Origin: a virus
Taxonomy: Duplodnaviria; Heunggongvirae; Uroviricota; Caudoviricetes
Reading direction: 5' to 3' (one strand)
IMG/VR virus record: IMGVR_UViG_3300005831_000057
Length of the DNA: 64,000 nucleotides
Part shown: in pieces, positions 19,251 to 52,722 of the stretch
How positions within the stretch are numbered: position 1 is the first letter of the stretch
How the letters are laid out: each line of letters begins with the position of its first letter
Notes under the pieces: model-generated
Database searches by the model: none
Told to the model about the DNA's origin: nothing
What the model saw: only the letters and a program-made list of their open reading frames with translations
Translations under genes and position numbers: made by a program

Positions 19251-19892
19251 TTAATCCCTTTCGTCTTTATTTTTGTATTCAAATCTTATACTCGAAATTT
19301 CGTTATCGTCCATAATAATAGCACATAATCTACCACCAAATACACATCCGTTATCAATACATATACAATTGTACTTAATATTAACTAAATTGTCTTCTAC
19401 TGTAGTATGCCCATGCATGGTAAGACATTTGCGCTTAGAATCTACATTTCTACTCCATAAAATATCATCTTTTGTATTTTCTTCTATATCTGGTTTTGAT
19501 AGTGACGAGTGACACCAAACAATATCGCCATCTTTGAAATATAAAGGTAGACTTTTAATCGTGTGATACATCGCTTTATAACTCTGTCCGTTTTTATAAA
19601 AACTTCTCTTCGTTTTGTTACCGCCATTTGAAATCCAAGACTTATCCACTTCGTTTACATAATCCAAAAACATCTGTTCGTGATTTCCTAACAGCCATAT
19701 AAATTTGTCACTTTTGGCAATAATTCTAGTATTTATGATAAAATTAAAAAGTTCATAACTATTACGTCCTCTGTCTATTACATCTCCAGTAATTATAAGT
19801 CTATCTTGTTGTGGATCATAATTTATTTTATCTAACAATGTCATAAGTGTATAATAACATCCATGTATATCTCCGACTGTTATAGTTCTCAT
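19251..19892 (-). CDS. PPP-family (lambda-phosphatase-like) metallophosphoesterase
   Basis: GDIHGCYY, GDVIDRG and GNHE motifs. This is the same fold as the phosphoesterase module of bacterial Pnkp. Confidence 0.75.
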   Translation of the reverse strand: MRTITVGDIHGCYYTLMTLLDKINYDPQQDRLIITGDVIDRGRNSYELFNFIINTRIIAKSDKFIWLLGNHEQMFLDYVNEVDKSWISNGGNKTKRSFYKNGQSYKAMYHTIKSLPLYFKDGDIVWCHSSLSKPDIEENTKDDILWSRNVDSKRKCLTMHGHTTVEDNLVNIKYNCICIDNGCVFGGRLCAIIMDDNEISSIRFEYKNKDERD

Positions 19893-43393: not shown

Positions 43394-44347
43394 TTATTTG
43401 TCTTTAATTATTGCACTTACGCCTTGAACAGTAACTTTGCTACCGTTCCATTTTTCTATTTCTTTATATTTAACAAGATTATCATTAATTGATGCTGAAA
43501 TCTTCTTGTTGGCAGTAGCTTCTGCACTAGATTTAATAATTACTGCATCTGCATCGGCTTTTGCTTTTGATAAAATCTGTTTATTCTTGTTTTGCTGCGT
43601 AATAATATTCTGTTCGGATGAAAACTTTTGGTTAATTGACTTCTGAATAGACGCATCTTGATAAGTTAATCCATTTTTCATACCTAAAACTGTAATGGTA
43701 ATTCCACGTCCACTAAAATAATCCACTACATCTTTTCTTACACTGTCCATAATAACACTTTTGTTTGCTAGCACATTATTTAACGTGTATTTTGCACACT
43801 CTTCGACAAATTTAGACTCTACTCTTGCCCTAATTTCAGTATCCATAATATTTGCTAACGTCTTATTATTGTATCTATATAAGAATTTTGTAGCATTAAA
43901 CTCGTCAATTTGAGCAGAACAGTTCATTCCGACACTGAAACCGATTGATTCTTTTGATTCAGCCATAATTACTTGATTTTTTGGGGTAGTTCCAGTCTTG
44001 CTATCGGATGTCCACTCTCTTGTTTCTGGCTTTCTTTCCACGATAACTAATTTTACTGTTGCACGATAATACCCAGAGTCTTCAAATCTTCCAGTTTGAA
44101 CCCATCTTTTAGAAATCGTGATCTCTTTTGATGCGACTTTTGCACTATTTAACGCTTCTTCTGACTTAAAAACTTCTTGATCAACTACATCTCCAGTCAA
44201 TGGAATCAAAAATGCCGTCTGCGAAGCCTCTATTGTTTTAATTTCTGGCTTATTATATGGTCTGCATCCCATAAACGAGCATGATACTAATACAAATAAT
44301 ACAACTAAAATACTTCTTCTAATTCTTACGCTTGGTTTAATTTTCAT
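43394..44347 (-). CDS. SPFH/band-7 (prohibitin-like) domain lipoprotein
   Basis: Lipobox LVSCSF. The central region resembles a band-7 domain and is followed by an Ala/Lys-rich coiled coil. Confidence 0.45.
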   Translation of the reverse strand: MKIKPSVRIRRSILVVLFVLVSCSFMGCRPYNKPEIKTIEASQTAFLIPLTGDVVDQEVFKSEEALNSAKVASKEITISKRWVQTGRFEDSGYYRATVKLVIVERKPETREWTSDSKTGTTPKNQVIMAESKESIGFSVGMNCSAQIDEFNATKFLYRYNNKTLANIMDTEIRARVESKFVEECAKYTLNNVLANKSVIMDSVRKDVVDYFSGRGITITVLGMKNGLTYQDASIQKSINQKFSSEQNIITQQNKNKQILSKAKADADAVIIKSSAEATANKKISASINDNLVKYKEIEKWNGSKVTVQGVSAIIKDK

Positions 44348-44814: not shown

Positions 44815-44967
44815 AATTCCTCCTATTTAATTAATTTGTTGGCATAAAATTAAGACCATCCAAAATATATCAATATATAACTCTTTGGTCTTATTGTGCC
44901 TAAACACAGAGTTTTCATCATATGGGTTTTGTTTGCTGTTAGAATCCTATACAAGATTCGTAATATA

Positions 44968-46473
44968 TTACATAATCTCTTTTAAAATATCTTCTAATGG
45001 CTGATATCTTTCAGAGTTAAGTACGTCTAACAATACTTCATATGGATCCATTTTGTCAGATAACACCATCTTGAAAGTGTTTACTGAAAATCCACTTACT
45101 AAGGCAACTCCAAGTTCATTTTGAATTACTGGAATAGTACTGCTTCTTGAACATACATTCCAAAATACCAACCTTGGCATATTATATCCATGATCTTTGA
45201 AATCTTGTGTTAGCTTGTCAAAGATTCTTACTTCTGCATTTTCTTTGCATTCGTCAAATTCCATATCGGATATAACCAAAATATTACTTGGCAAATCCTC
45301 TTGTTTCATATTGCCATTAATCGCAGTGTCGAGAATAAGCTTAAACACAGCCTCGATGTCGGTGTTACTTACTTCCCATTCATCATTAGCTCTGTGAAGT
45401 TTTGCCAATAATGAATCGCGTCCGCTTAAATCGACAAGCTGAGGTTTACTTGAAAACGTAATAAACTTATCCTTAAACTCTCCACTACACCTTTCTGAAA
45501 AATATATAGAAAGTGAAGTAGCTACATCGTGTGCAGTTACAGTGGTATTTCCTACACTTGTACCCATACTACCCGAACCATCTCTTACGACAATTGTATT
45601 CGAATTTCCATCAACAATATCTTTCTGATTAGCCCACAACATTTCAAGATTACTGTCTAAGTCTGTGCGATACTCACTTTTATACCTAGAAACTATCTCG
45701 TATGGCATAAGAACTCCAGCGTTAACAGTCTCTTCTCCACTTTTAACCTTCTCTATAAACTCTGAACGCCTTGCTTCGTCATGCTTATAGAACGCTGCGT
45801 TGTAAAGAAGATTATTCTTTGATGTAATTGTCTTGTAGTTAATTTCATCCCATCTTCCACTACACATTTTAACTTCTACCACGTCGATATATCTTCTAAG
45901 ACTTGATAATGCTTTTCTATATTCCTTTTCAGTAAGTCCAAGATATCCGCTTACAATTTTTCCAAGTCTCTTAGTATTCTTAGAGCTTGCATTAATAGAT
46001 GGTAGCCACTTACCAAGCAATGAAACTTCTTGATCATTGTCTAAAGCATTAAGATCTTGATCAAGAGTACGTTTGATCATTGATAATACTAATTCTGACA
46101 ACTTTGTGTCTAGTAAGCATAAAATGTCGTCGAATCTTCCATAGAAAGGAATAAACTTAATTAAATCCTTTACCACTTCTTTGTTGTTTTCAGCCAAATA
46201 GCAAATAATAATCTTGAACAAATTTCTTTCTCCTAGTCCTTCTCTTATATCTCTGGCGTAAAATAACCACTTGATTGAATTCTTTGCATCTTCGTCATAA
46301 GCCTTAACAAAAGATTTGATAATTTCTTCACTCGTAGAATTTCTAAATGAAGAAACTTTAAAATTTAAATCCAATAAATATTTTCCAGTAGTCTTATATC
46401 CTAAACCACCATTCTCTGTGATACTAAAATTGTTATCTAAATCTAACTGTTTTTCTAATTTTGTAATAAACAT
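44968..46473 (-). CDS. TROVE-like + vWA protein related to Ro60/Rsr (DUF2828-like)
   Basis: C-terminal vWA MIDAS VVRDGSGSMGT...T...D. The ~290-aa helical N-terminal region is compatible with TROVE. AGAGGA RBS. Confidence 0.55.
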   Translation of the reverse strand: MFITKLEKQLDLDNNFSITENGGLGYKTTGKYLLDLNFKVSSFRNSTSEEIIKSFVKAYDEDAKNSIKWLFYARDIREGLGERNLFKIIICYLAENNKEVVKDLIKFIPFYGRFDDILCLLDTKLSELVLSMIKRTLDQDLNALDNDQEVSLLGKWLPSINASSKNTKRLGKIVSGYLGLTEKEYRKALSSLRRYIDVVEVKMCSGRWDEINYKTITSKNNLLYNAAFYKHDEARRSEFIEKVKSGEETVNAGVLMPYEIVSRYKSEYRTDLDSNLEMLWANQKDIVDGNSNTIVVRDGSGSMGTSVGNTTVTAHDVATSLSIYFSERCSGEFKDKFITFSSKPQLVDLSGRDSLLAKLHRANDEWEVSNTDIEAVFKLILDTAINGNMKQEDLPSNILVISDMEFDECKENAEVRIFDKLTQDFKDHGYNMPRLVFWNVCSRSSTIPVIQNELGVALVSGFSVNTFKMVLSDKMDPYEVLLDVLNSERYQPLEDILKEIM

Positions 46474-46512
46474 AATCTTCCTCTTTTCTTTTCATTTTTT
46501 TATTTAATCACT

Positions 46513-46562
46513 AGATACCATATTCATCGCATATGATTTTTTTAATTTGCTGCGTGTACCTA
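46513..46562. repeat. Direct repeat copy R1 (core TTCATCGCATATGATTTTTTTAATTTGCTGCGTGTACC)
   Basis: Near-identical to R4. Read directly from the sequence. Confidence 0.8.
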
Positions 46563-46586
46563 TGATTATGTTTTATTTTTTACTTA

Positions 46587-46627
46587 CAAGATGCCATATT
46601 TCATCGCATATGATTTTTAATTTGCTG
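46587..46627. repeat. Direct repeat copy R2 (CAAGATGCCATATTTCATCGCATATGATTTTTAATTTGCTG)
   Basis: Shares the core with R1 and R4. Directly flanks the tRNA-like element. Confidence 0.8.
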
Positions 46628-46639
46628 TTAACATCTTAA

Positions 46640-46752
46640 TCGACACAGTAGGGCTCGAACCTACGACATATAGTTTTCTTTTTTATTGCTGTATAAATAT
46701 TTTACAATATTTTAAATTTTGCTATCGCTCTCCCAGCTGAGCTATGTGTCGA
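46640..46752 (-). ncRNA. tRNA-like ncRNA with a ~50-nt expansion replacing the anticodon arm; candidate Y-RNA-like (YrlA-type) RNA
   Basis: On the minus strand: a perfect 7-bp acceptor stem (CGACACA/TGTGTCG), a D-arm GCTCAGCTGGGAGAGC and a T-arm GTAGGTTCGAGCCCTAC. ~50 nt of AT-rich insert with an AAATATT-GTAA-AATATTT hairpin lies between the D- and T-arms. No CCA is encoded. Confidence 0.5.
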
Positions 46753-46782
46753 ATCTACTAGATGCGCTTTAACTTTAAAATA

Positions 46783-46807
46783 GTTTTTTTAATTTGCTGC
46801 TTACATC
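46783..46807. repeat. Partial direct repeat copy R3 (TTTTTTTAATTTGCTGCTTACATC)
   Basis: Matches the 3' half of R1/R2/R4. Flanks the tRNA-like element on the other side. Confidence 0.6.
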
Positions 46808-46817
46808 TATTTTTTTA

Positions 46818-46870
46818 CAAGATACGTTATTTTCATCGCATATGATTTTTTTAATTTGCTGCGTGTACCT
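46818..46870. repeat. Direct repeat copy R4 (CAAGATACG...TTCATCGCATATGATTTTTTTAATTTGCTGCGTGTACCT)
   Basis: 38/38 identity with the R1 core. Located at the predicted 5' end of the transcript from the 46881-46909 promoter. Confidence 0.8.
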
Positions 46871-46880
46871 TACTTTAATC

Positions 46881-46909
46881 ATTATATCATACTTATTTTT
46901 GCTTGTCAA
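46881..46909 (-). promoter_or_regulatory. Perfect-consensus sigma-A promoter (minus strand): TTGACA-N17-TATAAT with an A-tract UP element
   Basis: Reverse complement reads AAAAAAAGTGTTGACAagcaaaaataagtatgaTATAAT. Confidence 0.6.
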
Positions 46910-46960: not shown

Positions 46961-46989
46961 ATTATATCATGTATATTTCAAGATGTCAA
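46961..46989 (-). promoter_or_regulatory. Second perfect-consensus sigma-A promoter in tandem (minus strand)
   Basis: Reverse complement reads AAAAAAAGTATTGACAtcttgaaatatacatgaTATAAT. Confidence 0.6.
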
Positions 46990-46997
46990 TACTTTTT

Positions 46998-47720
46998 TTA
47001 AATTATTACTAAGTTATTTATATAATCTCTATTCTTTGTGAATATTGGTATTTCGTTATCGATCACCCATTCGCCAAGTCCGTTTCTTATGGCGCAAGAT
47101 CCTCTTTTGAAACTAGTCTCGACATTATTCCAATTAATATCCTTCTCCATCAACATATCTTGTACCTCCGACGTATTCTTAAATTGTAAAGACTTGTGAG
47201 AAAATACCGACTGAGCCAATCCATTTATACTATTCCTTGTGGCATCTTGCTGTCGCCAAACTAAGCAGTTAGCAGCGTCTCCTTTTGGTATGTTGAAAAC
47301 TCTTGAGTCAAATGTAGCACTCTTAAGTTTTTCATATTTATCTATATTGCAACCGTCTATTCTACTACATATACTCTTATTAAATTCCAAAGTAGCAATA
47401 GAAGCTGAAACGCTTACCATCTTTTGGATATTATTACTAAACCAAGGCTGAGTTTCAAGTCTAAAATAATCCACTATCAATAGCGTTATTTCGTCAGACT
47501 GTGTATACCCAAGCACGCAACCTTGTATTTTCTTGCACAATTGTAGCATCGTATCTTGCATCGCACCAGATAAAACTGTGTCGTATGGACGATCTATTCC
47601 TTTGGCTAAAGTGTGAAACGCACAGCCGTCAAGTCTTATAATGACTGGAGTTCGTCTCATTAATTCTCCATTACTAACTCTTTCATAAGCCTTCATTCTA
47701 TCTCCTAGCGAATCTACCAT
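46998..47720 (-). CDS. Thg1-like protein (tRNA-His guanylyltransferase family 3'-5' polymerase, TLP)
   Basis: KAYERV, VIIRLDGCAFHTL, GYTQSDEITLL, VWRQQDATRNSINGL and the C-terminal block align with the Thg1/TLP hallmarks (KFEYVR, VVVRLDGRNFHRF, AYGQSDEYSF, SWRQADCHINNL). Confidence 0.85.
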   Translation of the reverse strand: MVDSLGDRMKAYERVSNGELMRRTPVIIRLDGCAFHTLAKGIDRPYDTVLSGAMQDTMLQLCKKIQGCVLGYTQSDEITLLIVDYFRLETQPWFSNNIQKMVSVSASIATLEFNKSICSRIDGCNIDKYEKLKSATFDSRVFNIPKGDAANCLVWRQQDATRNSINGLAQSVFSHKSLQFKNTSEVQDMLMEKDINWNNVETSFKRGSCAIRNGLGEWVIDNEIPIFTKNRDYINNLVII

Positions 47721-47731
47721 AAACTCACCTC

Positions 47732-48511
47732 CTATAATATTATTGCGTCAAGTCCTATATTTACACTGTCGAACGCATTTCTCTTCTCTTCTTTAGTTAT
47801 TCCAATATATTCAAGCGTAATAGAGCTAGAACTGTGCCCTAAAATACTCTGCAATACAGATAACATTTTTCCTTTATCTTCTGACGTATCATATCTAAAT
47901 CTGCAAAAACTACGTCTTAGGCTATGTGTGCCAACATCGTACCTTACACATGCGAAGTCTGATGCATCCTTTATGCTCTTGTAAAAAGCAGGATAATTCA
48001 TATGTCCGCCTCTAGCACCTTCAAATACATAATCTTCATGATTTACATATTTTATATTCTTGCCAACAGACTTAAGATAATTACTTATTGCCATTCTAAA
48101 TCCTTCATTAAAAGACAAAAAAACATGCTTGTCATATCTACTTGTTTTTTCTGGCTTAATCGTTTTGCCATCTTTGAAATTATTATTATCGTCTAGTATA
48201 TCGCCAAACTTAATAGACAATAAGTCATTTATTCTAAGCCCGAGATTTATATTGCATAAGAATATTGCCTTTTGGCATCTATAAGAATCTCTATATCTAT
48301 ACTGCGATTCAGTTATCATTTTGTCATAATATGCTACAAACTTATTTACATCTTCTAGCCTAATATATTCGCCTTTATCTTCACGATTACTTTTGGCGTT
48401 AGACTTCGTTTGTTTTGGAAGTCCATCTTTTCTTAATTTTGCTACTTTACCGCCGTCTATAACTTCTAACGGCTTACTTGTTTCAAAAGAATAAATTCTT
48501 GCAGTATTCAT
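47732..48511 (-). CDS. Tyrosine recombinase / integrase family protein
   Basis: R (GLRINDLL), HSLRRSF (HxxR) and LGHSSSSITLEYIG (catalytic Tyr) motifs. Confidence 0.7.
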   Translation of the reverse strand: MNTARIYSFETSKPLEVIDGGKVAKLRKDGLPKQTKSNAKSNREDKGEYIRLEDVNKFVAYYDKMITESQYRYRDSYRCQKAIFLCNINLGLRINDLLSIKFGDILDDNNNFKDGKTIKPEKTSRYDKHVFLSFNEGFRMAISNYLKSVGKNIKYVNHEDYVFEGARGGHMNYPAFYKSIKDASDFACVRYDVGTHSLRRSFCRFRYDTSEDKGKMLSVLQSILGHSSSSITLEYIGITKEEKRNAFDSVNIGLDAIIL

Positions 48512-48683: not shown

Positions 48684-49787
48684 TTAATTTATTTCAGTTA
48701 TCCACAGAAAATCTTCGCCGTCTTCATTTCGTCCGATTACTTCAAAGTCTATCTGTACTGTCTGCTCTGTAACAGAACTCGTAAAAACTATGCATCCTTC
48801 TTCTGGTTTAAAATCAATGTCGCACATTCCGTAAAATCCTAAATCCATCATGTCTGTGTTAATATCGTCAAATGTAAGCGTACGTCCTAAAATATTATCT
48901 TCTACAGAACTCTTTTCGTTGGCAGTTTGAGCTTCTTCTATCTCTTCTAATACACCAGACGGTTTGTATTTATTTCCGCTATAATAATATCCATTATAGT
49001 AATATTCGTCAGTATCATACTCGTCGTCTTCGTCAATTTCTTCGGCATTGTAATAACTGTGCTTTGGAATATAATTATAGTTGTATTTAAATACATACTT
49101 TTCATATGCGAACGCTTTAGGATTCTCGGCTGCGTCATCTAGCATATTTTCTACTTTCTTAGCAGTATTCATCATTGCGTTTATAGAAATATATTCAGAC
49201 GTGCTATGTTCGTTAAGATACCCAATACTAAGATTTACACTTGCTACATCCCATGCGTCAGATAATTTACAGATGTCAGAAAAACTTCCAGTCTGCTTAG
49301 TAAATCCAAAATTGGTAACGTATTCTTGGAATTCTTTATTTTCACAGCTATAAAATACTGCGTCATTAACCCCACGTCTATCCAATTCGATCATATAGTT
49401 TATCTTAGGACAATTCATTAGTCTAACTGCTTGCGACGCTCCTATAGCACCAATCTCTTCGTCATGTGTAAATAGAATATGCGGTCTATATCCATCATTT
49501 AAAATTTCTTTGATGGCATAAACTCCACATCTATCATCGCCGCCAATTCCTTGAGGAGACCACATAAATTTTTCCCAAGGATCATGAACGATATTTGTTG
49601 GCAAGTTTTTATGAACAGTATCTAAATGAGCGACTAATAAAACTGGAATACTTCCTTCTGCGTAAATGAATTTATCACTTTCAAATACGTAGTCGTAGCA
49701 ACCATTCAAGAATCCCATAACGCTGTCGTGCAATTCATCTTGTGTCATTCTTAATATTTTCTTAAACTTCTTTGCTTTAAATTCCAT
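48684..49787 (-). CDS. M20/M28/M42-type dinuclear metallohydrolase-like protein
   Basis: VAHLDTVH, GGDDRCGV and THDEEIGAIG motifs. Start set at MEFKAK, which follows an AGAGGG RBS. Confidence 0.45.
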   Translation of the reverse strand: MEFKAKKFKKILRMTQDELHDSVMGFLNGCYDYVFESDKFIYAEGSIPVLLVAHLDTVHKNLPTNIVHDPWEKFMWSPQGIGGDDRCGVYAIKEILNDGYRPHILFTHDEEIGAIGASQAVRLMNCPKINYMIELDRRGVNDAVFYSCENKEFQEYVTNFGFTKQTGSFSDICKLSDAWDVASVNLSIGYLNEHSTSEYISINAMMNTAKKVENMLDDAAENPKAFAYEKYVFKYNYNYIPKHSYYNAEEIDEDDEYDTDEYYYNGYYYSGNKYKPSGVLEEIEEAQTANEKSSVEDNILGRTLTFDDINTDMMDLGFYGMCDIDFKPEEGCIVFTSSVTEQTVQIDFEVIGRNEDGEDFLWITEIN

Positions 49788-49788
49788 A

Positions 49789-51234
49789 TTAATCCCTCTT
49801 CTCTGATTTTTCATTTTGTGAATCGAAACACTCTTGACATATCACTCTCTCCGTATATGAGCCTACATCATTCATTGTTTTTCCGCAATAAACACATTTT
49901 GCATCAACTCCTATATCAAATACTGCGTCTTTATCTATGTCGACAGATTCTGAATGAGCTATTGACACATGCTCATCTCTTACGGCATCCCTATAAATTG
50001 TTGTCGCATAGTTAATTTTACCACCATAACTATTTCTGGTAATCCTCCACTTGTTTATAATGCCTAATTTGTCGGACATTATCTTTTCTAGCATTTGTCT
50101 GACACATTTAGAAATTGATTCATTCTTGCTTGTGAATTGCTTTGAGAATATAGTGCAGCAAGTATTCTTATCTAGGTGTATAAATTGTACCCAAGACTTA
50201 AATGCTCCGTCAACTGCAAATCCATATTTCTTCTGAGTAGTAATCTCGTTGCCACATGCAAATCCCACCAAAGTACATTCATCTAACATTCTTCCGATTC
50301 CACTAGACACATATCCGTCTATGCCGTGAATAAATCCGTCTAAATCTCCATCACGACACATAATATAATCGTATGGATCAATAGAAATTGTAACATTTGA
50401 TTTTACCACTTTTGACTTCATGATATCGTCGAAATCTTTAATGAAGTCTTTATTTTTTACAATATGCCTAATAATATCTGAAACCTTGTTAGATTTAACG
50501 TATAAGTTTGAAGCTATAAGCCTAATCACATGTCTATCCGTATATCTTATCGAATCTCGTAAAACTTCATCTGTCTGAAAATTCATCATAAGCGTAGCAT
50601 ATCTAGGATGTTTCATACATAAAGAACTAATCATATTTGCCATTAACGGCTCGTTGATATCGACTTCAACTTCCTCTGTGACAGATAAATTATTCCCCAT
50701 CATTACATAAAAATCATATTTAGCCACAGCCCAATCTTTAAGATATTCGTTAACCACATCTTTATTTGGCATCTTTTTATTATAACTATTGCTGCCAGCG
50801 ATTGCAAGTAATTTTTTAAATCTTTTCAAATCAACTTTACTAATCATTTCCTTTATTATCTCTTCATTTTTTTCGTTTACAATGCTATATTTAGTTGTCG
50901 CCAATTTATCACCTTCCTCTTCTTTATTTAAACTATCTTTATACTCGTTAAGAAATTTTAACATTATAATACGAGTTGACTCGGTTACAGAATACTCATC
51001 TATATTATTTATTGCAAAATCTATCTCTTCTTCTGTAGGAAAATATCTCTCAAAGCTATTAATTCGAACTATACTCCACCATTCTAAACCTACTTCATTA
51101 TTCCTAGAGCTTATAGTTACCATTCCTCCTATATCGGTACATAATCCTATGAATTTATTAAATAATGATGTTTCAGTATAACTATTGTCTATAGCTCTCC
51201 AGAACTTTCCTATGTATCTATCCCACTTATCCAT
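49789..51234 (-). CDS. Hypothetical 481-aa protein, paralog of the upstream gene; C-terminal Cys4 cluster
   Basis: Collinear similarity with the 492-aa neighbour (MLKFLNEYKD vs MLKDYLNNEE; ISIDPYDY in both; C-terminal CVYCGK...CQEC). Confidence 0.5.
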   Translation of the reverse strand: MDKWDRYIGKFWRAIDNSYTETSLFNKFIGLCTDIGGMVTISSRNNEVGLEWWSIVRINSFERYFPTEEEIDFAINNIDEYSVTESTRIIMLKFLNEYKDSLNKEEEGDKLATTKYSIVNEKNEEIIKEMISKVDLKRFKKLLAIAGSNSYNKKMPNKDVVNEYLKDWAVAKYDFYVMMGNNLSVTEEVEVDINEPLMANMISSLCMKHPRYATLMMNFQTDEVLRDSIRYTDRHVIRLIASNLYVKSNKVSDIIRHIVKNKDFIKDFDDIMKSKVVKSNVTISIDPYDYIMCRDGDLDGFIHGIDGYVSSGIGRMLDECTLVGFACGNEITTQKKYGFAVDGAFKSWVQFIHLDKNTCCTIFSKQFTSKNESISKCVRQMLEKIMSDKLGIINKWRITRNSYGGKINYATTIYRDAVRDEHVSIAHSESVDIDKDAVFDIGVDAKCVYCGKTMNDVGSYTERVICQECFDSQNEKSEKRD

Positions 51235-51243
51235 TATCTCCTC

Positions 51244-52722
51244 CTAATAATCATCATCGTCATCGTCATCGTCTCCGTTACAAGAACGACATGACACTCT
51301 ACTGCTGCTATTCTTCATTATTTTGCCACAATACACACAAGGAGCATCTTTGCCTACATTTACACATCCAAGCGATTCGGAATTTTCAGGATGCGAAGAT
51401 ATATGGTCATATCCATGCAATACGTCATGATATCCTAGGTTGCTTATATCATTGTATTCAAATGGCAACTCACTATTATAGCTTTGGTAGTATGCGTCAA
51501 CTCCAAAATAATCATTTATACTTTTAAACATCAACTTCCTTACTTCTGACGACAATTCTTCTGACTTATTCGGGTATTGTCTGCTAAAAATAACAGAACA
51601 TGATTTTTTATCCATATACACACATTGTCTCCAATATTTTGAATTTCCAATAAACTCAAACCCTAAAATATTATATCTGTAATTTTCGCCATTTTCTCGA
51701 TAGGCTATCAATGTACTTTCGTCGGTCATATAACTCACCATTCCAGTTGAATAACATCCATCAATAATATTATGGCATGAATCCCAATTATGTTTGTTGG
51801 TAGACATTGTAAGATAATCGTATGGATCAATAGAAATTACAATTTTACCTTTTACTTTCTTGTTTTGCATTGATACAGATAAATCGCTATTAAACTTACC
51901 ATCTTCGTGCAGTCTTGCCATAAATGACGATACTCTTCCGCCAATCTTAAATAGCTTTGGCATATATCTTGAAAATAAATCGTGAAATTCCATTTTATTG
52001 TTTATTAATTCTTTGCTTTTGAACGCATCTAAGTTACATGCCATTTCTGGATATCTCATCTGCAACTTTTCAATCTCTTTTTTCATTTCACTTTCGTCCA
52101 TGGAGATATCTACTTCTGCTTCAATAGATAATTTATTTCCAAACAAAACATAGAACTCAGCTTTATTTTCAGCCCAAACATCCAAATACTTACGAACAAT
52201 ATCAGCACTAGCTGCTTTCGATGTGCTTTTAGTACTCCCAGCAATTGACATCATATTGAAAAATCTTTCGTCGTCAATTTTGCCAATCATTTCTTTTTTT
52301 ATAGCCGCTTTGTCTTCTAGCGTTATATTATAGCTAAACTTTTCAACTTCTTTTATATCTTCCGCTTTAAAGTTTTCTTCATTATTTAGATAGTCTTTCA
52401 ACATATTAATAACGACTGGATATCTTTCAAAATTATTATTCCCTTTGACGAAATCAACATAACTATTCACCTCGTCTTTTGTCGGATTATAAATATCAAA
52501 GCAATTTGAATCTTTATTTCTTACGTCATAACCAACTACATAAGGACTAATATCTAAGCAACTACATACAAAAATCTTTAAGTCGTAATATATACCTATA
52601 AACTTATTCTTCTTATTAGTAACTATAAACTCGCCATTAGAATTTTCATTTGCGATAACTATATTGCCATTTGTAAACACCTTTCTTTTTAGCGCATCTA
52701 ACTTTTTAAAAGTTTCTACCAT
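51244..52722 (-). CDS. Hypothetical 492-aa protein, paralog of the downstream gene; C-terminal Cys cluster and poly-Asp tail
   Basis: Same conserved blocks as its neighbour. Ends CVYCGK...CRSCNGDDDDDDDDY. Confidence 0.5.
   Translation of the reverse strand: MVETFKKLDALKRKVFTNGNIVIANENSNGEFIVTNKKNKFIGIYYDLKIFVCSCLDISPYVVGYDVRNKDSNCFDIYNPTKDEVNSYVDFVKGNNNFERYPVVINMLKDYLNNEENFKAEDIKEVEKFSYNITLEDKAAIKKEMIGKIDDERFFNMMSIAGSTKSTSKAASADIVRKYLDVWAENKAEFYVLFGNKLSIEAEVDISMDESEMKKEIEKLQMRYPEMACNLDAFKSKELINNKMEFHDLFSRYMPKLFKIGGRVSSFMARLHEDGKFNSDLSVSMQNKKVKGKIVISIDPYDYLTMSTNKHNWDSCHNIIDGCYSTGMVSYMTDESTLIAYRENGENYRYNILGFEFIGNSKYWRQCVYMDKKSCSVIFSRQYPNKSEELSSEVRKLMFKSINDYFGVDAYYQSYNSELPFEYNDISNLGYHDVLHGYDHISSHPENSESLGCVNVGKDAPCVYCGKIMKNSSSRVSCRSCNGDDDDDDDDY

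What the first reader, a model, noticed from the sequence alone, without database searches (positions are those of the whole stretch)
44968..46473. Phage-encoded Ro60/Rsr-like TROVE-vWA protein
501 aa with a clear C-terminal vWA MIDAS (DGSGSMGT) and a helical N-terminal half. This is the domain order of Ro60 and the DUF2828 relatives. Ro60 proteins bind misfolded or structured ncRNAs and tether exoribonucleases. Here it sits next to a tRNA-like RNA and a Thg1-like enzyme, which suggests an RNP acting on tRNA-like substrates during infection.
Basis: partly seen in the sequence, partly recalled or inferred. Interest (0 to 1): 0.7.

Follow-up and report, generated by a model that had tools for sequence, protein, structure and literature searches.

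The report
Phage Ro60-like protein with partner RNAs
The gene encodes a phage version of the ring-shaped RNA-binding protein Ro60, from a large known family, and it sits behind an array of small, conserved, tRNA-mimicking RNAs, apparently undescribed, that accompany this gene in phages of many bacterial phyla and are probably its RNA partners.

Summary

The protein itself is not new. The family occurs in 711 GenBank phage records. According to a preprint, a Felixounavirus Ro60-like gene in the same position counters the Ppl defence (homology not tested here).

The RNA context appears to be new. Between two consensus promoters and the start codon lie four ~50-nt units: a 7-bp closing stem, single-stranded RCAGCAA, and an inner hairpin. 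There is also one tRNA-Phe-like RNA whose anticodon loop is replaced by the same module. A covariance model, or its core sequence, finds this motif on the same strand near DUF2828 genes in 11 cultured-phage or reference lineages (clear model hits in six) and most of 80 metagenomic loci. It is absent from the tRNA cluster of phage T5. No Rfam family matches.

I infer a Ro60/Y-RNA-like particle that displays tRNA parts and acts in tRNA repair or counter-defence. Binding is untested.

The parts
44968..46473 (-). ORF of 501 aa: Ro60-like TROVE-type ring plus vWA protein, DUF2828/DUF7788 family, PHROG 850
   Evidence: ORF list. Pfam and PHROG matches. AF2 model and fold searches.
45604..46473 (-). 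N-terminal alpha-helical half (residues 1-290), TROVE/HEAT-like solenoid. It carries at least 16 invariant or nearly invariant Arg/Lys residues.
45049..45600 (-). C-terminal vWA domain (residues 292-475)
45568..45582 (-). MIDAS DxSxS (D298-G-S300-G-S302). T371 and D403 complete the site.
   Evidence: Sequence. D298, S300, S302, T371 and D403 are invariant in 46 homologues.
46477..46484 (-). Shine-Dalgarno-like AGAGGAAG, 3 nt before the ATG
   Evidence: Read from the sequence.
46512..46562 (-). RCAGCAA unit 4: UAGGUAC-ac-GCAGCAA...GUAUCUA. It ends 38 nt before the start codon.
   Evidence: Regex with 7/7 stem pairing. CM R1 17.5 bits, E 0.0016, filters off.
46588..46637 (-). RCAGCAA unit 3: AAGAUGU-ua-ACAGCAA...GCAUCUU. 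It starts 2 nt after the tRNA-like RNA.
   Evidence: CM R1 25.0 bits, E 6e-6. Stem pairing.
46640..46751 (-). tRNA-Phe-like RNA with canonical acceptor, D and T arms and a 4-bp anticodon stem. The anticodon loop is replaced by the RCAGCAA module, and there is no U33 or usable anticodon.
   Evidence: Rfam tRNA 46.4 bits with a 48-nt insert. Not found by standard ARAGORN, and implausible in intron mode. Aligns with 11 homologous elements: 94% of cells paired, 20 of 27 pairs with compensatory changes.
46686..46712 (-). Embedded module: hairpin AAAUAUU-GUAA-AAUAUUU, then AU, then ACAGCAA
   Evidence: Sequence. The hairpin covaries among relatives, e.g. AAGACUU/AAGUCUU, GAGCCUU/AAGGCUU, GAGACU/AGUCUC.
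46759..46809 (-). RCAGCAA unit 2: UAGAUGU-aa-GCAGCAA...GCAUCUA. The inner 3-bp hairpin has loop AUUUUAA. The unit ends 7 nt before the tRNA-like RNA.
   Evidence: CM R1 19.7 bits, E 3e-4. Stem pairing.
46819..46871 (-). RCAGCAA unit 1: AAGGUAC-ac-GCAGCAA...GUAUCUU. It starts about where promoter P2 should initiate.
   Evidence: CM R1 24.2 bits, E 1.2e-5. The stem includes a G-U pair, which fits RNA of this strand only.
46881..46909 (-). Promoter-like site P2: TTGACA, 17 nt spacer, TG-TATAAT (12 of 12 matches, extended -10)
   Evidence: Promoter scan. This is a consensus match only.
46961..46989 (-). Promoter-like site P1: TTGACA, 17 nt spacer, TG-TATAAT (12 of 12 matches)
   Evidence: Promoter scan. 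No terminator-like site lies between the promoters and the ORF.
46998..47720 (-). Thg1-like 3'-5' nucleotidyltransferase (240 aa), immediately upstream on the same strand
   Evidence: Pfam Thg1 E 3.1e-29, PHROG 4717 E 1.2e-85. A homologue lies within 4 kb of DUF2828 in 20 of 80 related loci.

Best explanation
The ORF encodes a Ro60-like ring protein. A TROVE-type alpha-solenoid is closed by a vWA domain with a complete MIDAS site. It belongs to the DUF2828/DUF7788 (PHROG 850) family.

The gene is the last cistron of a short RNA-gene array driven by two consensus sigma-70 promoters. The array holds four ~50-nt 'RCAGCAA units' and one tRNA-Phe-like RNA that carries the same module in place of its anticodon loop.

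Shown:
- the fold of the protein;
- the motif and its covariation;
- its tight, strand-specific linkage to DUF2828 genes in phages of many phyla.

Inferred:
- The units are released from the polycistronic transcript, often by the tRNA-processing cuts at neighbouring tRNAs.
- The protein binds the module (a 7-bp helix of conserved sequence plus the adjacent single-stranded RCAGCAA tract) much as Ro60 binds the stem of a Y RNA.
- The resulting RNPs display tRNA parts: anticodon-arm mimics, whole tRNAs, or a tRNA body.

Most speculative: the RNP works on the tRNA/defence axis. It would shield, decoy or help repair tRNAs attacked by host nucleases, or hold host RNases or defence proteins through the vWA/MIDAS face. 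It would do this together with the Thg1-like 5'-end repair enzyme and, in relatives, a nick-sealing RNA ligase or RtcB.
For: Protein:
- DUF2828, DUF7788 and PHROG 850 matches.
- Invariant MIDAS residues and many invariant basic residues.

RNA motif:
- ACAGCAA occurs 539 times on the gene strand and 36 times on the other strand in the 80 loci plus the window region. 424 of the 539 lie within 2 kb upstream of DUF2828.
- The closing stem pairs 7/7 in 164 of 367 sites, against 49 in a control, at a tight spacing of 36-51 nt.
- In 131 CM hits, 97.7% of cells are paired against 69.6% in shuffles and ~40% when the partner is slid. All 12 pairs show double changes.

Linkage:
- 70 of 80 loci have a unit within 600 nt upstream or 400 nt downstream of DUF2828. 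204 units lie on the gene strand and 5 on the other.
- A motif-only search of IMG/VR (22 specified bases) returned 120 stretches. 80 of them carry a DUF2828 homologue, typically within ~45 nt before the start or ~60 nt after the stop.
- The CM gives clear hits (E <= 3e-5) next to DUF2828 in Campylobacter, Mycobacterium, Bacillus, Listeria, Escherichia and Staphylococcus phages.
- It gives marginal hits (E 0.008-0.04) just upstream of the gene in Sinorhizobium, Synechococcus and Prevotella (Lak) phages.
- By eye, a half-motif lies in the 5' UTR of a Vibrio phage gene, and an embedded variant sits in a tRNA-like RNA 2.8 kb downstream in Aeromonas phage Aeh1.
- The Mycobacterium locus has no tRNA within 6 kb, and the nearest tRNA in the Staphylococcus locus is 1.4 kb downstream.
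- Downstream tRNA arrays lack units: 120 tRNAs, 25 units, 21 of them within 70 nt of the stop.
- The 25-tRNA cluster of T5, where no DUF2828 homologue was found in the 40 kb examined, has none.

Precedent:
- Ro60 with adjacent same-strand tRNA-like Y RNAs in bacteria and phages (PMC4201824).
- phiLo Ro60 binds two upstream Y-like RNAs and host PNPase (PMC12135203).

Functional context:
- DUF2828, then an RNA ligase (PHA02142 OB fold plus RNA_ligase), then Thg1, in 20 loci.
- RtcB and an RNA ligase lie downstream in a Listeria phage.
- Bas63 gp130, a Ro60-like gene in the same position before the tRNA genes of a Felixounavirus, counters the Ppl defence (PMC11482910). Its homology to DUF2828 is inferred from that position, not tested.
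Against: - No binding data exist for any DUF2828 protein and these RNAs. No expression or processing data exist for the units.
- Bas63 gp130 alone, on a plasmid or inserted in T7, restores plaquing on Ppl cells. Phage units are therefore not required for that phenotype, unless host RNAs substitute.
- The motif has none of the sequence features of known Ro60 ligands (bulged Y RNA helix, CGAA motif). No Y RNA family of Rfam matches.
- The window's own units score modestly (17-25 bits) and have weak inner hairpins.
- The CM seed was chosen for perfect stems, and the hit alignment is fitted to the model, which inflates the paired fraction.
- Many metagenomic loci are related to each other, so the counts are not independent events. 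The cross-phylum hits are the independent evidence.
- The same module sits inside genuine tRNA genes, where it looks like an intron. An RNP-partner model does not explain that.
Confidence: 0.55

Rival explanations
1. The units are cis-acting elements of the transcript rather than trans-acting partners. They would be an operator through which the protein represses its own translation, and/or punctuation that guides RNase processing of the tRNA-rich precursor.
For: - The nearest unit ends 35-50 nt before the start codon in many loci, and 38 nt in the window.
- In Vibrio phage phi-Grn1 a half-unit lies in the 5' UTR, and its 3' partner AUGUC overlaps the start codon.
- In Sinorhizobium phiN3 a minimal unit ends 17 nt before the start.
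- Units often abut tRNA ends: 32 begin 0-9 nt after a tRNA and 38 end 5-29 nt before one.
Against: - Units also lie just after the stop codon (21 cases in the 80 loci; Staphylococcus, Mycobacterium and Escherichia phages) and come in arrays of 2-5.
- The inner hairpins are exact anticodon-arm mimics of many different tRNAs, which an operator would not need.
- The module is also built into tRNA bodies far from any start codon.
- Autoregulation would still require the protein to bind the motif, so this explanation overlaps with the main one.
Confidence: 0.2
2. The module is a small intron-like or mobile insertion that colonises phage tRNA regions. DUF2828, with an RNA ligase and Thg1, would be the machinery that excises it and heals the tRNA. 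The stand-alone units would be free or degenerate copies.
For: - In real tRNA genes the module interrupts the 5' strand of the anticodon stem. It lies between nt 28 and 29 in the tRNA-Asn(GUU) genes L030 3323 and L001 3632 and in L065 3744 (anticodon loop AUGCUAA), leaving an intact anticodon arm.
- Rfam finds 115-136-nt tRNAs in seven loci.
- A ligase related to nick-sealing RNA ligases, and a 3'-5' polymerase, follow DUF2828 in 20 loci.
- 'Enigmatic introns' were reported in Lak phage tRNAs. Lak-A1 has a DUF2828 homologue with a marginal unit hit (E 0.015) upstream.
Against: - No endonuclease is identified, and no ribozyme or intron family of Rfam matches.
- Stand-alone units outnumber embedded ones and keep covarying stems and anticodon-like loops, so they are under selection and not decaying.
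- Units occur with DUF2828 where there is no tRNA within 6 kb.
- The window's tRNA-like RNA would have no anticodon loop even after any excision.
- The window (64 kb) has no homologue of the ligase found in related loci.
Confidence: 0.13
3. The protein acts without any phage-encoded RNA. It would be a direct inhibitor or sponge of host factors, such as the Ppl defence protein or PNPase, through its vWA/MIDAS face or by binding host RNAs. The neighbouring units would belong to the tRNA region for unrelated reasons.
For: - Bas63 gp130 alone rescues T7 on Ppl cells and even improves plating without the defence.
- vWA MIDAS sites are protein-binding modules in the best vWA structural matches, Rea1/midasin and Rpn10.
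Against: - The motif tracks the gene, not tRNAs. It is found at DUF2828 genes with no tRNA nearby. It is absent from tRNA arrays further from the gene and from T5.
- A motif-only search recovers DUF2828 genes in 80 of 120 stretches.
- The ring half carries many invariant basic residues.
- The closest solved relative binds RNAs encoded next to its gene.
Confidence: 0.1

Closest known systems
Ro60/Rsr with Y RNAs, especially bacterial YrlA (Chen et al. 2014, PMC4201824)
   Same: - A ring of helical repeats closed by a vWA domain with a MIDAS site.
- A structured ncRNA gene lies next to the protein gene on the same strand.
- That RNA combines a stem formed by its two ends with a tRNA-like part.
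- The window's 46640-46751 RNA is a tRNA body without an anticodon loop, whose anticodon stem leads into the putative protein-binding module. This is the logic of YrlA.
   Different: - No sequence-level similarity: Pfam TROVE is not matched, and the profile search against PDB finds nothing.
- The N-terminal half is shorter.
- The RNA motif is different (AAGRCRC/GYGYCUU stem plus RCAGCAA, with no bulged Ro-binding helix).
- The RNA is much smaller (~55 nt), comes in arrays, and usually carries an anticodon-arm mimic rather than the T/D-arm mimic of YrlA. The tRNA-like body keeps free acceptor ends.
Thermus phage phiLo phiRo60 with Yrl1/Yrl2 and host PNPase (Hu et al. 2025, PMC12135203; PDB 9l5y, probably also 9kop)
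   Same: - It is a phage-encoded Ro60-like ring.
- Small structured RNAs are encoded just upstream of its gene and bind the protein.
   Different: - 16% identity, with no detectable sequence relationship to the DUF2828 family.
- The Yrl RNAs were defined by a CGAA motif, not RCAGCAA.
- No tRNA genes or tRNA repair genes came up for that phage in the passages of the paper I read.
- PNPase binding is untested for the DUF2828 family.
Bas63 (Felixounavirus) gp130, which counters the Ppl defence (PhageMaP preprint, PMC11482910)
   Same: - It is described as structurally similar to Ro60 and as lying directly upstream of the tRNA genes.
- This is the position of the DUF2828 gene in Felixounavirus ECML-1, where two RCAGCAA units follow the gene (one clear hit, one weak at E 0.03).
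- It gives the family an experimental phenotype.
   Different: - The identity of gp130 with the DUF2828 gene is inferred from the description and synteny. I did not align the sequences.
- The authors guessed that some annotated tRNAs might be Y RNAs, and did not describe the RCAGCAA motif.
- gp130 worked without phage RNAs in T7.
- The window phage is unrelated at the DNA level, and its host is unknown.
Rsr-YrlA-RtcB-RtcA RNA repair operon (Hughes et al. 2020, PMC7790460) and the ROT/TROVE repair platforms proposed by Burroughs and Aravind (as cited in PMC7824862)
   Same: A Ro60-type protein, a tRNA-like RNA and RNA end-healing or sealing enzymes are encoded together and tied to tRNA damage.
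   Different: - The enzymes here are a Thg1-like 3'-5' polymerase (window) and a ligase with an OB fold plus RNA_ligase domains, or RtcB (relatives).
- No RtcR-type regulator is present.
- The setting is a lytic-phage tRNA region, not a stress operon.
'Enigmatic' tRNA introns of Lak megaphages (Devoto et al., bioRxiv 10.1101/356790)
   Same: - Short insertions in phage tRNA genes that no known intron class explains.
- Lak-A1 encodes a DUF2828 homologue, with a marginal unit hit upstream of it.
   Different: I could not read the Lak intron sequences because the supplement is not held. Whether they contain the RCAGCAA module is untested.

Membership tests
DUF2828/DUF7788 phage proteins (PHROG 850) | Match to Pfam DUF2828 in the N-terminal half above the gathering score | tested here: met
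   116.1 bits against a cut-off of 29, E 2.4e-33.
DUF2828/DUF7788 phage proteins (PHROG 850) | Match to Pfam DUF7788 (vWA-like) in the C-terminal half, and an end-to-end PHROG 850 match | tested here: met
   DUF7788 155.6 bits against a cut-off of 27.1. PHROG 850 E 6.5e-128 over residues 17-491. 706 of 711 GenBank phage records align over at least 80% of the query.
Ro60/TROVE proteins | Sequence match to the TROVE domain (Pfam PF05731) or to solved Ro60 proteins | tested here: not met
   No TROVE hit at E <= 0.1. phmmer and a 46-sequence profile find no Ro60 in PDB.
Ro60/TROVE proteins | Fold: helical-repeat ring closed by a vWA domain | tested here: met
   [not shown]
Ro60/TROVE proteins | MIDAS motif DxSxS...T...D in the vWA domain | tested here: met
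   D298, S300, S302, T371 and D403 are invariant in 46 homologues.
Ro60/TROVE proteins | Binds a Y RNA or misfolded RNA; the RNA gene lies adjacent on the same strand | tested here: inconclusive
   Adjacent same-strand structured RNAs are present and conserved across phyla. Binding cannot be tested with these tools.
Y RNA / YrlA | Match to an Rfam Y RNA-type family, or the YrlA layout (ends form the Ro-binding stem, acceptor arm closed by a loop, GNCGAA T-loop motif) | tested here: not met
   Only tRNA reaches E <= 1 in the leader. Only tRNA-clan families (tRNA, tRNA-Sec, tmRNA) and two antisense chance matches reach E <= 0.1 in seven related loci. The layout differs: the acceptor ends are free and the module sits in the anticodon position.
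tRNA (for 46640-46751) | Cloverleaf with acceptor, D and T arms and conserved tertiary nucleotides | tested here: met
   Rfam tRNA 46.4 bits against a gathering score of 29. U8, A14, G18 G19, a UUCGA T loop, and a 7-bp acceptor stem are present. The helices covary among 12 relatives.
tRNA (for 46640-46751) | Seven-nucleotide anticodon loop with U33 and a readable anticodon | tested here: not met
   About 46 nt replace the loop. Standard ARAGORN finds nothing. Intron mode gives only an implausible Tyr(AUA) with a long extra arm. No deletion restores a loop with U33.
Thg1 / Thg1-like proteins (for 46998-47720) | Thg1 catalytic N-terminal domain | tested here: met
   Pfam Thg1 101.9 bits against a cut-off of 29.2. 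The C-terminal domain is weak (E 0.03). PHROG 4717 E 1.2e-85. Activity was not tested.
Known tRNA introns (group I) and self-cleaving ribozymes | Match to an Rfam intron or ribozyme family | tested here: not met
   No such family reaches E <= 1 in the window leader or E <= 0.1 in seven module-rich loci. At 43-55 nt the inserts are smaller than the group I introns known in bacterial tRNA genes, which are more than 200 nt (from general knowledge).

The most novel reading that the evidence does not exclude
The RCAGCAA module is a portable docking handle for the DUF2828 Ro60-like ring. Phages attach it to anticodon-arm mimics, to whole tRNAs (where it has been read as an 'enigmatic intron') or to anticodon-less tRNA bodies. 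The ring would then display or sequester tRNA parts, as decoys for or protection from host anticodon nucleases and other tRNA-targeting defences, or as a platform for ligase and Thg1 repair. This would define a new, very widespread class of viral Y-like RNAs. It would also give a mechanism to a family already reported to counter a bacterial defence system.
Probability: 0.25. Interest if true: 0.85.

Novelty: new variant of a known kind. Interest (0 to 1): 0.68.

Why it matters
Ro60-like proteins in phages are known. One has been shown to bind adjacent Y-like RNAs, and a Felixounavirus Ro60-like protein, probably of this family, is reported to counter a defence system. For the large DUF2828 branch (711 GenBank phage records, thousands of metagenomic homologues), no RNA partner has been described.

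The RCAGCAA units are a concrete and testable candidate. They are short, conserved in phages of Campylobacter, Mycobacterium, Bacillus, Listeria, Staphylococcus and Escherichia, with weaker matches in further host groups, and present in phages that can be grown and engineered.

Their anticodon-arm mimicry points to the conflict over tRNAs between phages and hosts. The embedded form may explain odd 'pseudo' or 'intron-containing' tRNA annotations in many phage genomes. If confirmed, annotation pipelines should stop calling these RNAs broken tRNAs.

Tried and rejected
- **Standard tRNA.** ARAGORN finds no tRNA in the window. Its intron mode gives an implausible tRNA-Tyr(AUA) with a 24-nt intron and a long extra arm. 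I rejected the reading as a decoding tRNA.
- **Sequence route to Ro60.** phmmer and profile searches against PDB gave nothing relevant. Only fold comparison works.
- **Close relatives of the window phage.** blastn against GenBank phages found only two short matches. An exact 25-mer of the tRNA-like 3' half has no match in IMG/VR. The identical protein P0001 has no contig on record.
- **Pattern searches.** A 14-base motif pattern in IMG/VR is dominated by chance matches. I replaced it with a 22-base pattern that includes the 3' stem strand.
- **Mapping intron boundaries.** Deleting every possible segment and re-running ARAGORN was too permissive to be useful. I read the boundaries by hand for a few tRNAs.
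- **Known ribozymes or introns.** No Rfam family matches.
- **Promoter or DNA-level element.** I rejected this because the stems covary, include G-U pairs valid on one strand only, and lie inside tRNA transcripts.
- **General feature of phage tRNA clusters.** I rejected this for three reasons. Downstream tRNA arrays in the same loci lack units. The T5 cluster lacks them. The Mycobacterium locus has units with no tRNA within 6 kb, and in the Staphylococcus locus the nearest tRNA is 1.4 kb downstream.
- **Armless decoding tRNAs.** I consider this unlikely. The stem is always followed by G, whatever the anticodon, and full-length tRNAs with the same anticodon coexist in the same locus.
- **Literature.** Searches for DUF2828 and for the motif sequence gave nothing relevant. 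The Lak phage supplement with the intron sequences is not held. A guessed accession for Bas63 turned out to be Bas51.
Full report
**1. The observation**

The window has an ORF of 501 aa on the minus strand, from the ATG at 46473 to the stop at 44968. The motif DGSGSMGT is at residues 298-305. Pfam gives DUF7788 for residues 292-475 (E 1.5e-45), DUF2828 for the N-terminal half (E 2.4e-33), and only a weak VWA_2 match (E 0.0087). PHROG 850, labelled 'RNA-binding protein', matches end to end (E 6.5e-128).

On the same strand upstream lie a Thg1-like ORF (46998-47720; Pfam Thg1 E 3.1e-29) and an integrase-like ORF. Rfam finds one tRNA-like RNA at 46640-46751 (46.4 bits) with 48 nt inserted in the anticodon loop. 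ARAGORN finds no tRNA anywhere in the window.

**2. The protein**

The family is large:
- More than 7,900 metagenomic homologues share the two Pfam domains.
- tblastn finds it in 711 of 50,697 GenBank phage records. These include Felixounaviruses, Listeria P100-like phages, mycobacteriophages (annotated 'Ro-like RNA binding protein'), and Campylobacter, Staphylococcus, Bacillus, Vibrio and Aeromonas phages, at 30-43% identity.

Sequence methods do not connect it to Ro60. Pfam TROVE is not matched, and neither the protein nor a 46-sequence profile finds Ro60 in PDB.

Fold comparison does connect them. An AlphaFold2 model built from the alignment (pLDDT 81, pTM 0.78) has an all-helical N-terminal half and an alpha/beta C-terminal half.
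- Foldseek ranks the phage TROVE structure 9kop first (E 4.5e-8, TM 0.58/0.62). Ro60 structures follow (alignments of 557-578 columns), and generic vWA domains cover only the C-terminal ~200 residues.

The MIDAS residues D298, S300, S302, T371 and D403 are invariant. At least 16 Arg/Lys residues in the helical half are invariant or nearly so. I conclude that this is a Ro60-like ring protein of a sequence family distinct from canonical TROVE.

**3. The leader region**

The 524-nt stretch between the Thg1 stop and the ORF start carries two perfect sigma-70-type promoters (TTGACA, 17 nt, TG-TATAAT) at 46989-46961 and 46909-46881. It has no terminator-like site.

It also holds four copies of a repeat that contains (G/A)CAGCAAAUUAAAAA. 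Two copies lie on each side of the tRNA-like RNA.

The tRNA-like RNA has canonical acceptor, D and T arms and a tRNA-Phe-like variable loop (AUGUC). Its anticodon loop is replaced by an A-rich tract, a hairpin (AAAUAUU-GUAA-AAUAUUU) and AU-ACAGCAA.

**4. Related loci show what the repeats are**

I fetched 80 IMG/VR loci that encode homologues of 48-54% identity. None of the window's other neighbours is conserved there except Thg1, which is present in 20 of 80 loci. In 75 of the 80 loci, same-strand tRNA genes lie within 4 kb.

Directly upstream of the gene, these loci carry tRNA-like elements of the same build as the one in the window. They also carry many copies of a heptamer, ACAGCAA.
- The heptamer occurs 539 times on the gene strand and 36 times on the other strand in the 80 loci plus the window region. 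About 46 per strand is expected by chance.
- 424 of the 539 lie in the 2 kb before the gene.
- The local consensus is aaa-G-R-C-R-C-N-N-A-CAGCAA-w-U-U-U-a.

The 7 nt before the heptamer pair perfectly with a segment 36-51 nt downstream in 164 of 367 distinct sites, against 49 in a positional control.

The resulting unit is ~55-65 nt long:
- a 7-bp closing stem (AAGRCRC/GYGYCUU, but also GGGGCGC/GCGCCCC, ACGACGC/GCGUCGU, GAGAGAC/GUCUCUC, ACAUCCC/GGGAUGU);
- two free nucleotides, then RCAGCAA, then ~10 nt;
- an inner hairpin;
- an A-rich return strand, the 3' stem strand and a G.

In about 100 of 381 distinct units the inner hairpin is an exact anticodon-arm mimic, with a 5-bp stem and a 7-nt loop carrying Y32, U33 and R37. 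The loops are CUUUUAA (Lys UUU, 25 units), CUUGAAA (15), CUGUUAA (Asn GUU, 8), UUUGGGU (Pro UGG, 8), CUGCUAA (6), CUGCAAA (6) and CUCAUAA (5).

The four repeats in the window are units of this kind, at 46819-46871, 46759-46809, 46588-46637 and 46512-46562. The last ends 38 nt before the start codon, which is the usual distance in relatives.

**5. Three topologies, one core**

- **Stand-alone units**, as described above.
- **Inside genuine tRNA genes.** A hairpin version (X-loop-X', NN, RCAGCAA, ~8 nt) interrupts the 5' strand of the anticodon stem. It lies between nt 28 and 29 in the tRNA-Asn(GUU) genes L030 3323 and L001 3632, and in L065 3744, whose anticodon loop reads AUGCUAA. The tRNA's own anticodon arm therefore takes the place of the inner hairpin. 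Rfam reports such tRNAs as 115-136 nt long.
- **Fused to a tRNA body that has no anticodon loop.** One family is Phe-like and includes the window RNA. A second has a class II-like body.

In a 12-sequence alignment of the Phe-like family, 94% of cells are paired against 71% in shuffles. 20 of 27 pairs show compensatory changes, including all seven pairs of the module hairpin.

The third form has the logic of bacterial YrlA: a tRNA-like body whose anticodon stem runs into the presumed protein-binding element (PMC4201824).

**6. Statistical support and specificity**

I built a covariance model from 26 units. It finds 131 hits at E <= 0.001 in 52 sources. 97.7% of cells are paired against 69.6% in shuffles and ~40% when the partner is slid. 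355 cells show double changes against 87 in shuffles. The seed was chosen for perfect stems and the alignment is fitted to the model, so the paired fraction is inflated. The variety of pair types and the hits in independent lineages are the stronger evidence.

Under the strict stem criterion, 70 of 80 loci have a unit within 600 nt upstream or 400 nt downstream of the gene. 204 units lie on the gene strand and 5 on the other.

The units are not a general property of tRNA arrays:
- The 80 loci hold 151 canonical tRNAs and 178 units upstream of the gene. Downstream they hold 120 tRNAs and only 25 units, 21 of which lie within 70 nt of the stop codon.
- In phage T5, tblastn with the window's DUF2828 and neighbouring proteins found nothing in the 40 kb examined. 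The 25-tRNA cluster there has no hit, and ACAGCAA is at chance level.

**7. Reverse test and independent lineages**

I searched IMG/VR with the motif alone: AAGACAC-NN-ACAGCAA-N28-56-GUGUCUUG. This has 22 specified bases, and about one chance match is expected. 80 of them contain a DUF2828 homologue (30-57% identity), all but one on the motif's strand. In most of these the unit ends ~45 nt before the start or begins ~60 nt after the stop; in the rest it lies up to several kb away.

Results in 11 cultured-phage or reference lineages:

| Phage | Position relative to DUF2828 | Evidence |
|---|---|---|
| Campylobacter F375 | Between the last tRNA and the gene | CM, E 3e-8 |
| Mycobacteriophage Crossroads | Two units right after the stop | CM, E 1e-7 and 3e-6 |
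| Bacillus Tsamsa | Two units before the start | CM, E 1.4e-7 and 3.4e-5 |
| Felixounavirus ECML-1 | Two units after the stop, between the first tRNAs | CM, E 3e-7; second weak (0.03) |
| Listeria LMLPA3 | Before the start | CM, E 3e-6; second weak (0.1) |
| Staphylococcus PG-2021_88 | Three tandem units after the stop | CM, E 7.5e-10 to 2.6e-5 |
| Sinorhizobium phiN3 | Just upstream, on the gene strand | CM, marginal (E 0.008) |
| Prevotella Lak-A1 | Just upstream, on the gene strand | CM, marginal (E 0.015) |
| Synechococcus B3 | Just upstream, on the gene strand | CM, marginal (E 0.041) |
| Aeromonas Aeh1 | Variant ACCGCAA inside a 122-nt 'tRNA-Val', 2.8 kb downstream | By eye |
| Vibrio phi-Grn1 | Half-unit in the 5' UTR; its 3' partner overlaps the start codon | By eye |

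Synechococcus B3 also has the variant ACUGCAA embedded in a 'pseudo-tRNA' 400 nt downstream of the gene. The Mycobacterium locus has no tRNA within 6 kb, and in the Staphylococcus locus the nearest is 1.4 kb downstream. The motif therefore follows the gene rather than tRNAs.

**8. Gene context**

- In 20 related loci the gene is followed by an RNA ligase (PHA02142 OB fold plus RNA_ligase domains) and then a Thg1-like gene. From general knowledge, that domain pair resembles nick-sealing RNA ligases.
- In the Listeria phage the gene lies between an 18-tRNA cluster and genes annotated as an RtcB-type 2',3'-phosphate ligase, an RNA ligase and a phosphohydrolase.
- In Felixounavirus, Campylobacter and Bacillus phages it borders the tRNA cluster.
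- In the window, Thg1 is immediately upstream. No ligase of the related-loci type is present in the 64 kb.

**9. What is already known**

- Ro60 orthologues with adjacent tRNA-like YrlA RNAs occur in over 250 bacteria and 22 phages (PMC4201824).
- Jumbo-phage surveys mention ROT/TROVE proteins with a tRNA-like partner, and sporadic Thg1 (PMC7824862).
- The Ro60 of Thermus phage phiLo has been solved. It binds two Y-like RNAs encoded upstream of its gene and forms complexes with host PNPase that slow the enzyme (PMC12135203).
- In the Felixounavirus Bas63, gp130 is described as Ro60-like and as lying directly upstream of the tRNA genes. It counters the Ppl defence system and does so even when moved alone into T7. 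The authors guessed that some annotated tRNAs might be its Y RNAs (PMC11482910).
- Lak megaphages were reported to have tRNAs with 'enigmatic introns'.

I found no description of the RCAGCAA motif. No Rfam 15 family matches it, and full-text searches for DUF2828 and for the motif sequence gave nothing relevant.

**10. Mechanism**

Shown:
- a Ro60-like fold with an intact MIDAS site;
- a covarying RNA motif in five copies between strong promoters and the gene;
- cross-phylum, strand-specific linkage of motif and gene.

Inferred, at about 0.55-0.6:
- The protein binds the module, meaning a helix of conserved sequence plus the adjoining single-stranded RCAGCAA tract. This is the kind of helix-plus-single-strand ligand that Ro60 accepts.
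- The units are cut out of the polycistronic RNA, often by the tRNA-processing cuts at flanking tRNAs. 32 units start 0-9 nt after a tRNA 3' end, and 38 end 5-29 nt before a tRNA 5' end.

More speculative, at about 0.25-0.4: the RNP displays anticodon arms, whole tRNAs or a tRNA body in order to decoy, shield or help repair tRNAs under attack, or to hold host RNases or defence proteins. It would work with Thg1 and ligases.

Rivals:
- a cis-acting operator or processing signal, which still implies that the protein binds the motif;
- an intron-like or mobile insertion, with DUF2828, ligase and Thg1 as the healing machinery;
- an RNA-independent inhibitor, favoured by the T7 transfer result.

**11. 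Verdict**

The protein is a new member of a known and partly characterised kind. The accompanying RNA motif appears to be undescribed, is very widespread, and can be tested directly in cultured phages. The whole is best called a new variant of the Ro60/Y RNA theme. Interest 0.68.

Noticed in passing
L030 3264-3400, L001 3570-3700, L065 3690-3800 (and many other related loci): Genuine tRNA genes carry a 43-55-nt insert between nt 28 and 29 of the anticodon stem. Examples are tRNA-Asn GUU (L030, L001) and a tRNA with anticodon loop AUGCUAA (L065). The insert is a hairpin followed by RCAGCAA, so these are intron-like elements of no known class. Whether they are spliced is unknown.
   Followed up: partly
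L312 5863-5972 (Synechococcus phage B3); L313 8151-8272 (Aeromonas phage Aeh1): Features annotated 'tRNA-Pseudo-GCA' (110 nt) and 'tRNA-Val' (122 nt) contain module variants ACUGCAA and ACCGCAA after a hairpin. Such over-long or pseudo-tRNA annotations near DUF2828 genes are probably module-bearing tRNA-like RNAs.
   Followed up: partly
L309 4940-4990 (Vibrio phage phi-Grn1): The 5' UTR of the DUF2828 gene holds AAAGACAUUUUACAGCAA. The complementary AUGUC overlaps the start codon, which suggests translational autoregulation through the motif.
   Followed up: no
L004-L013, L022-L025, L028, L032, L038, L058 (about 5.6-7.9 kb in each locus): There is a conserved three-gene order: DUF2828, then an RNA ligase (PHA02142 OB fold plus RNA_ligase domains), then a Thg1-like gene. 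It follows an array of module-bearing tRNAs.
   Followed up: partly
window 46881-46909 and 46961-46989 (-): Two promoter-like sites match the sigma-70 consensus perfectly (12 of 12, with an extended -10 TG), 80 nt apart. A 67-nt repeat (46829-46895 and 46520-46586) copies the second promoter's -10 region and unit 1 in degenerate form in front of unit 4.
   Followed up: partly
window 46759-46765 with 46631-46637 (-): The 3' stem strand of unit 2 (GCAUCUA) can also pair with the 5' stem strand of unit 3 (AAGAUGU). This alternative helix would enclose the whole tRNA-like RNA and extend its acceptor stem. It may matter for processing.
   Followed up: no
window 47732-48511 (-): A tyrosine-recombinase-like ORF (Pfam Phage_integrase E 4.6e-12, PHROG 216) lies next to Thg1. 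Recombinase-like genes with an MrpR N-terminal domain also sit upstream of the tRNA/unit arrays in 18 related loci.
   Followed up: no
window 49789-51234 and 51244-52722 (-): Two adjacent ORFs of 481 and 492 aa look like paralogues. They share motifs such as ISIDPYDY and a C-terminal CVYCGK...C..C pair. They gave no tblastn match in the 80 related loci; profile libraries were not searched.
   Followed up: no
window 43394-44347 (-) and 48684-49814 (-): One ORF is an SPFH/Band 7-like lipoprotein (Pfam Band_7 E 1.5e-5, PHROG 200). The other is a peptidase-like protein (PHROG 34186/4191, with weak M28/M42 matches). An SPFH homologue also lies upstream of the tRNA arrays in 9-24 related loci.
   Followed up: no
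window 19422-19471 (-): This is the only hit of the unit model in the window that lies far from the DUF2828 gene (15.1 bits, E 0.1). It is probably chance. A weaker match (11.0 bits, E 0.18) lies at 44852-44892 on the plus strand, just past the gene's stop.
   Followed up: no
L316 (phage T5, record 28-41 kb): The T5 tRNA region is annotated with eight 'stable RNAs with unknown functions', some tRNA-like. None matches the unit model, and no DUF2828 homologue was found in this 40-kb region. They may be an unrelated example of non-tRNA RNAs in phage tRNA clusters.
   Followed up: partly
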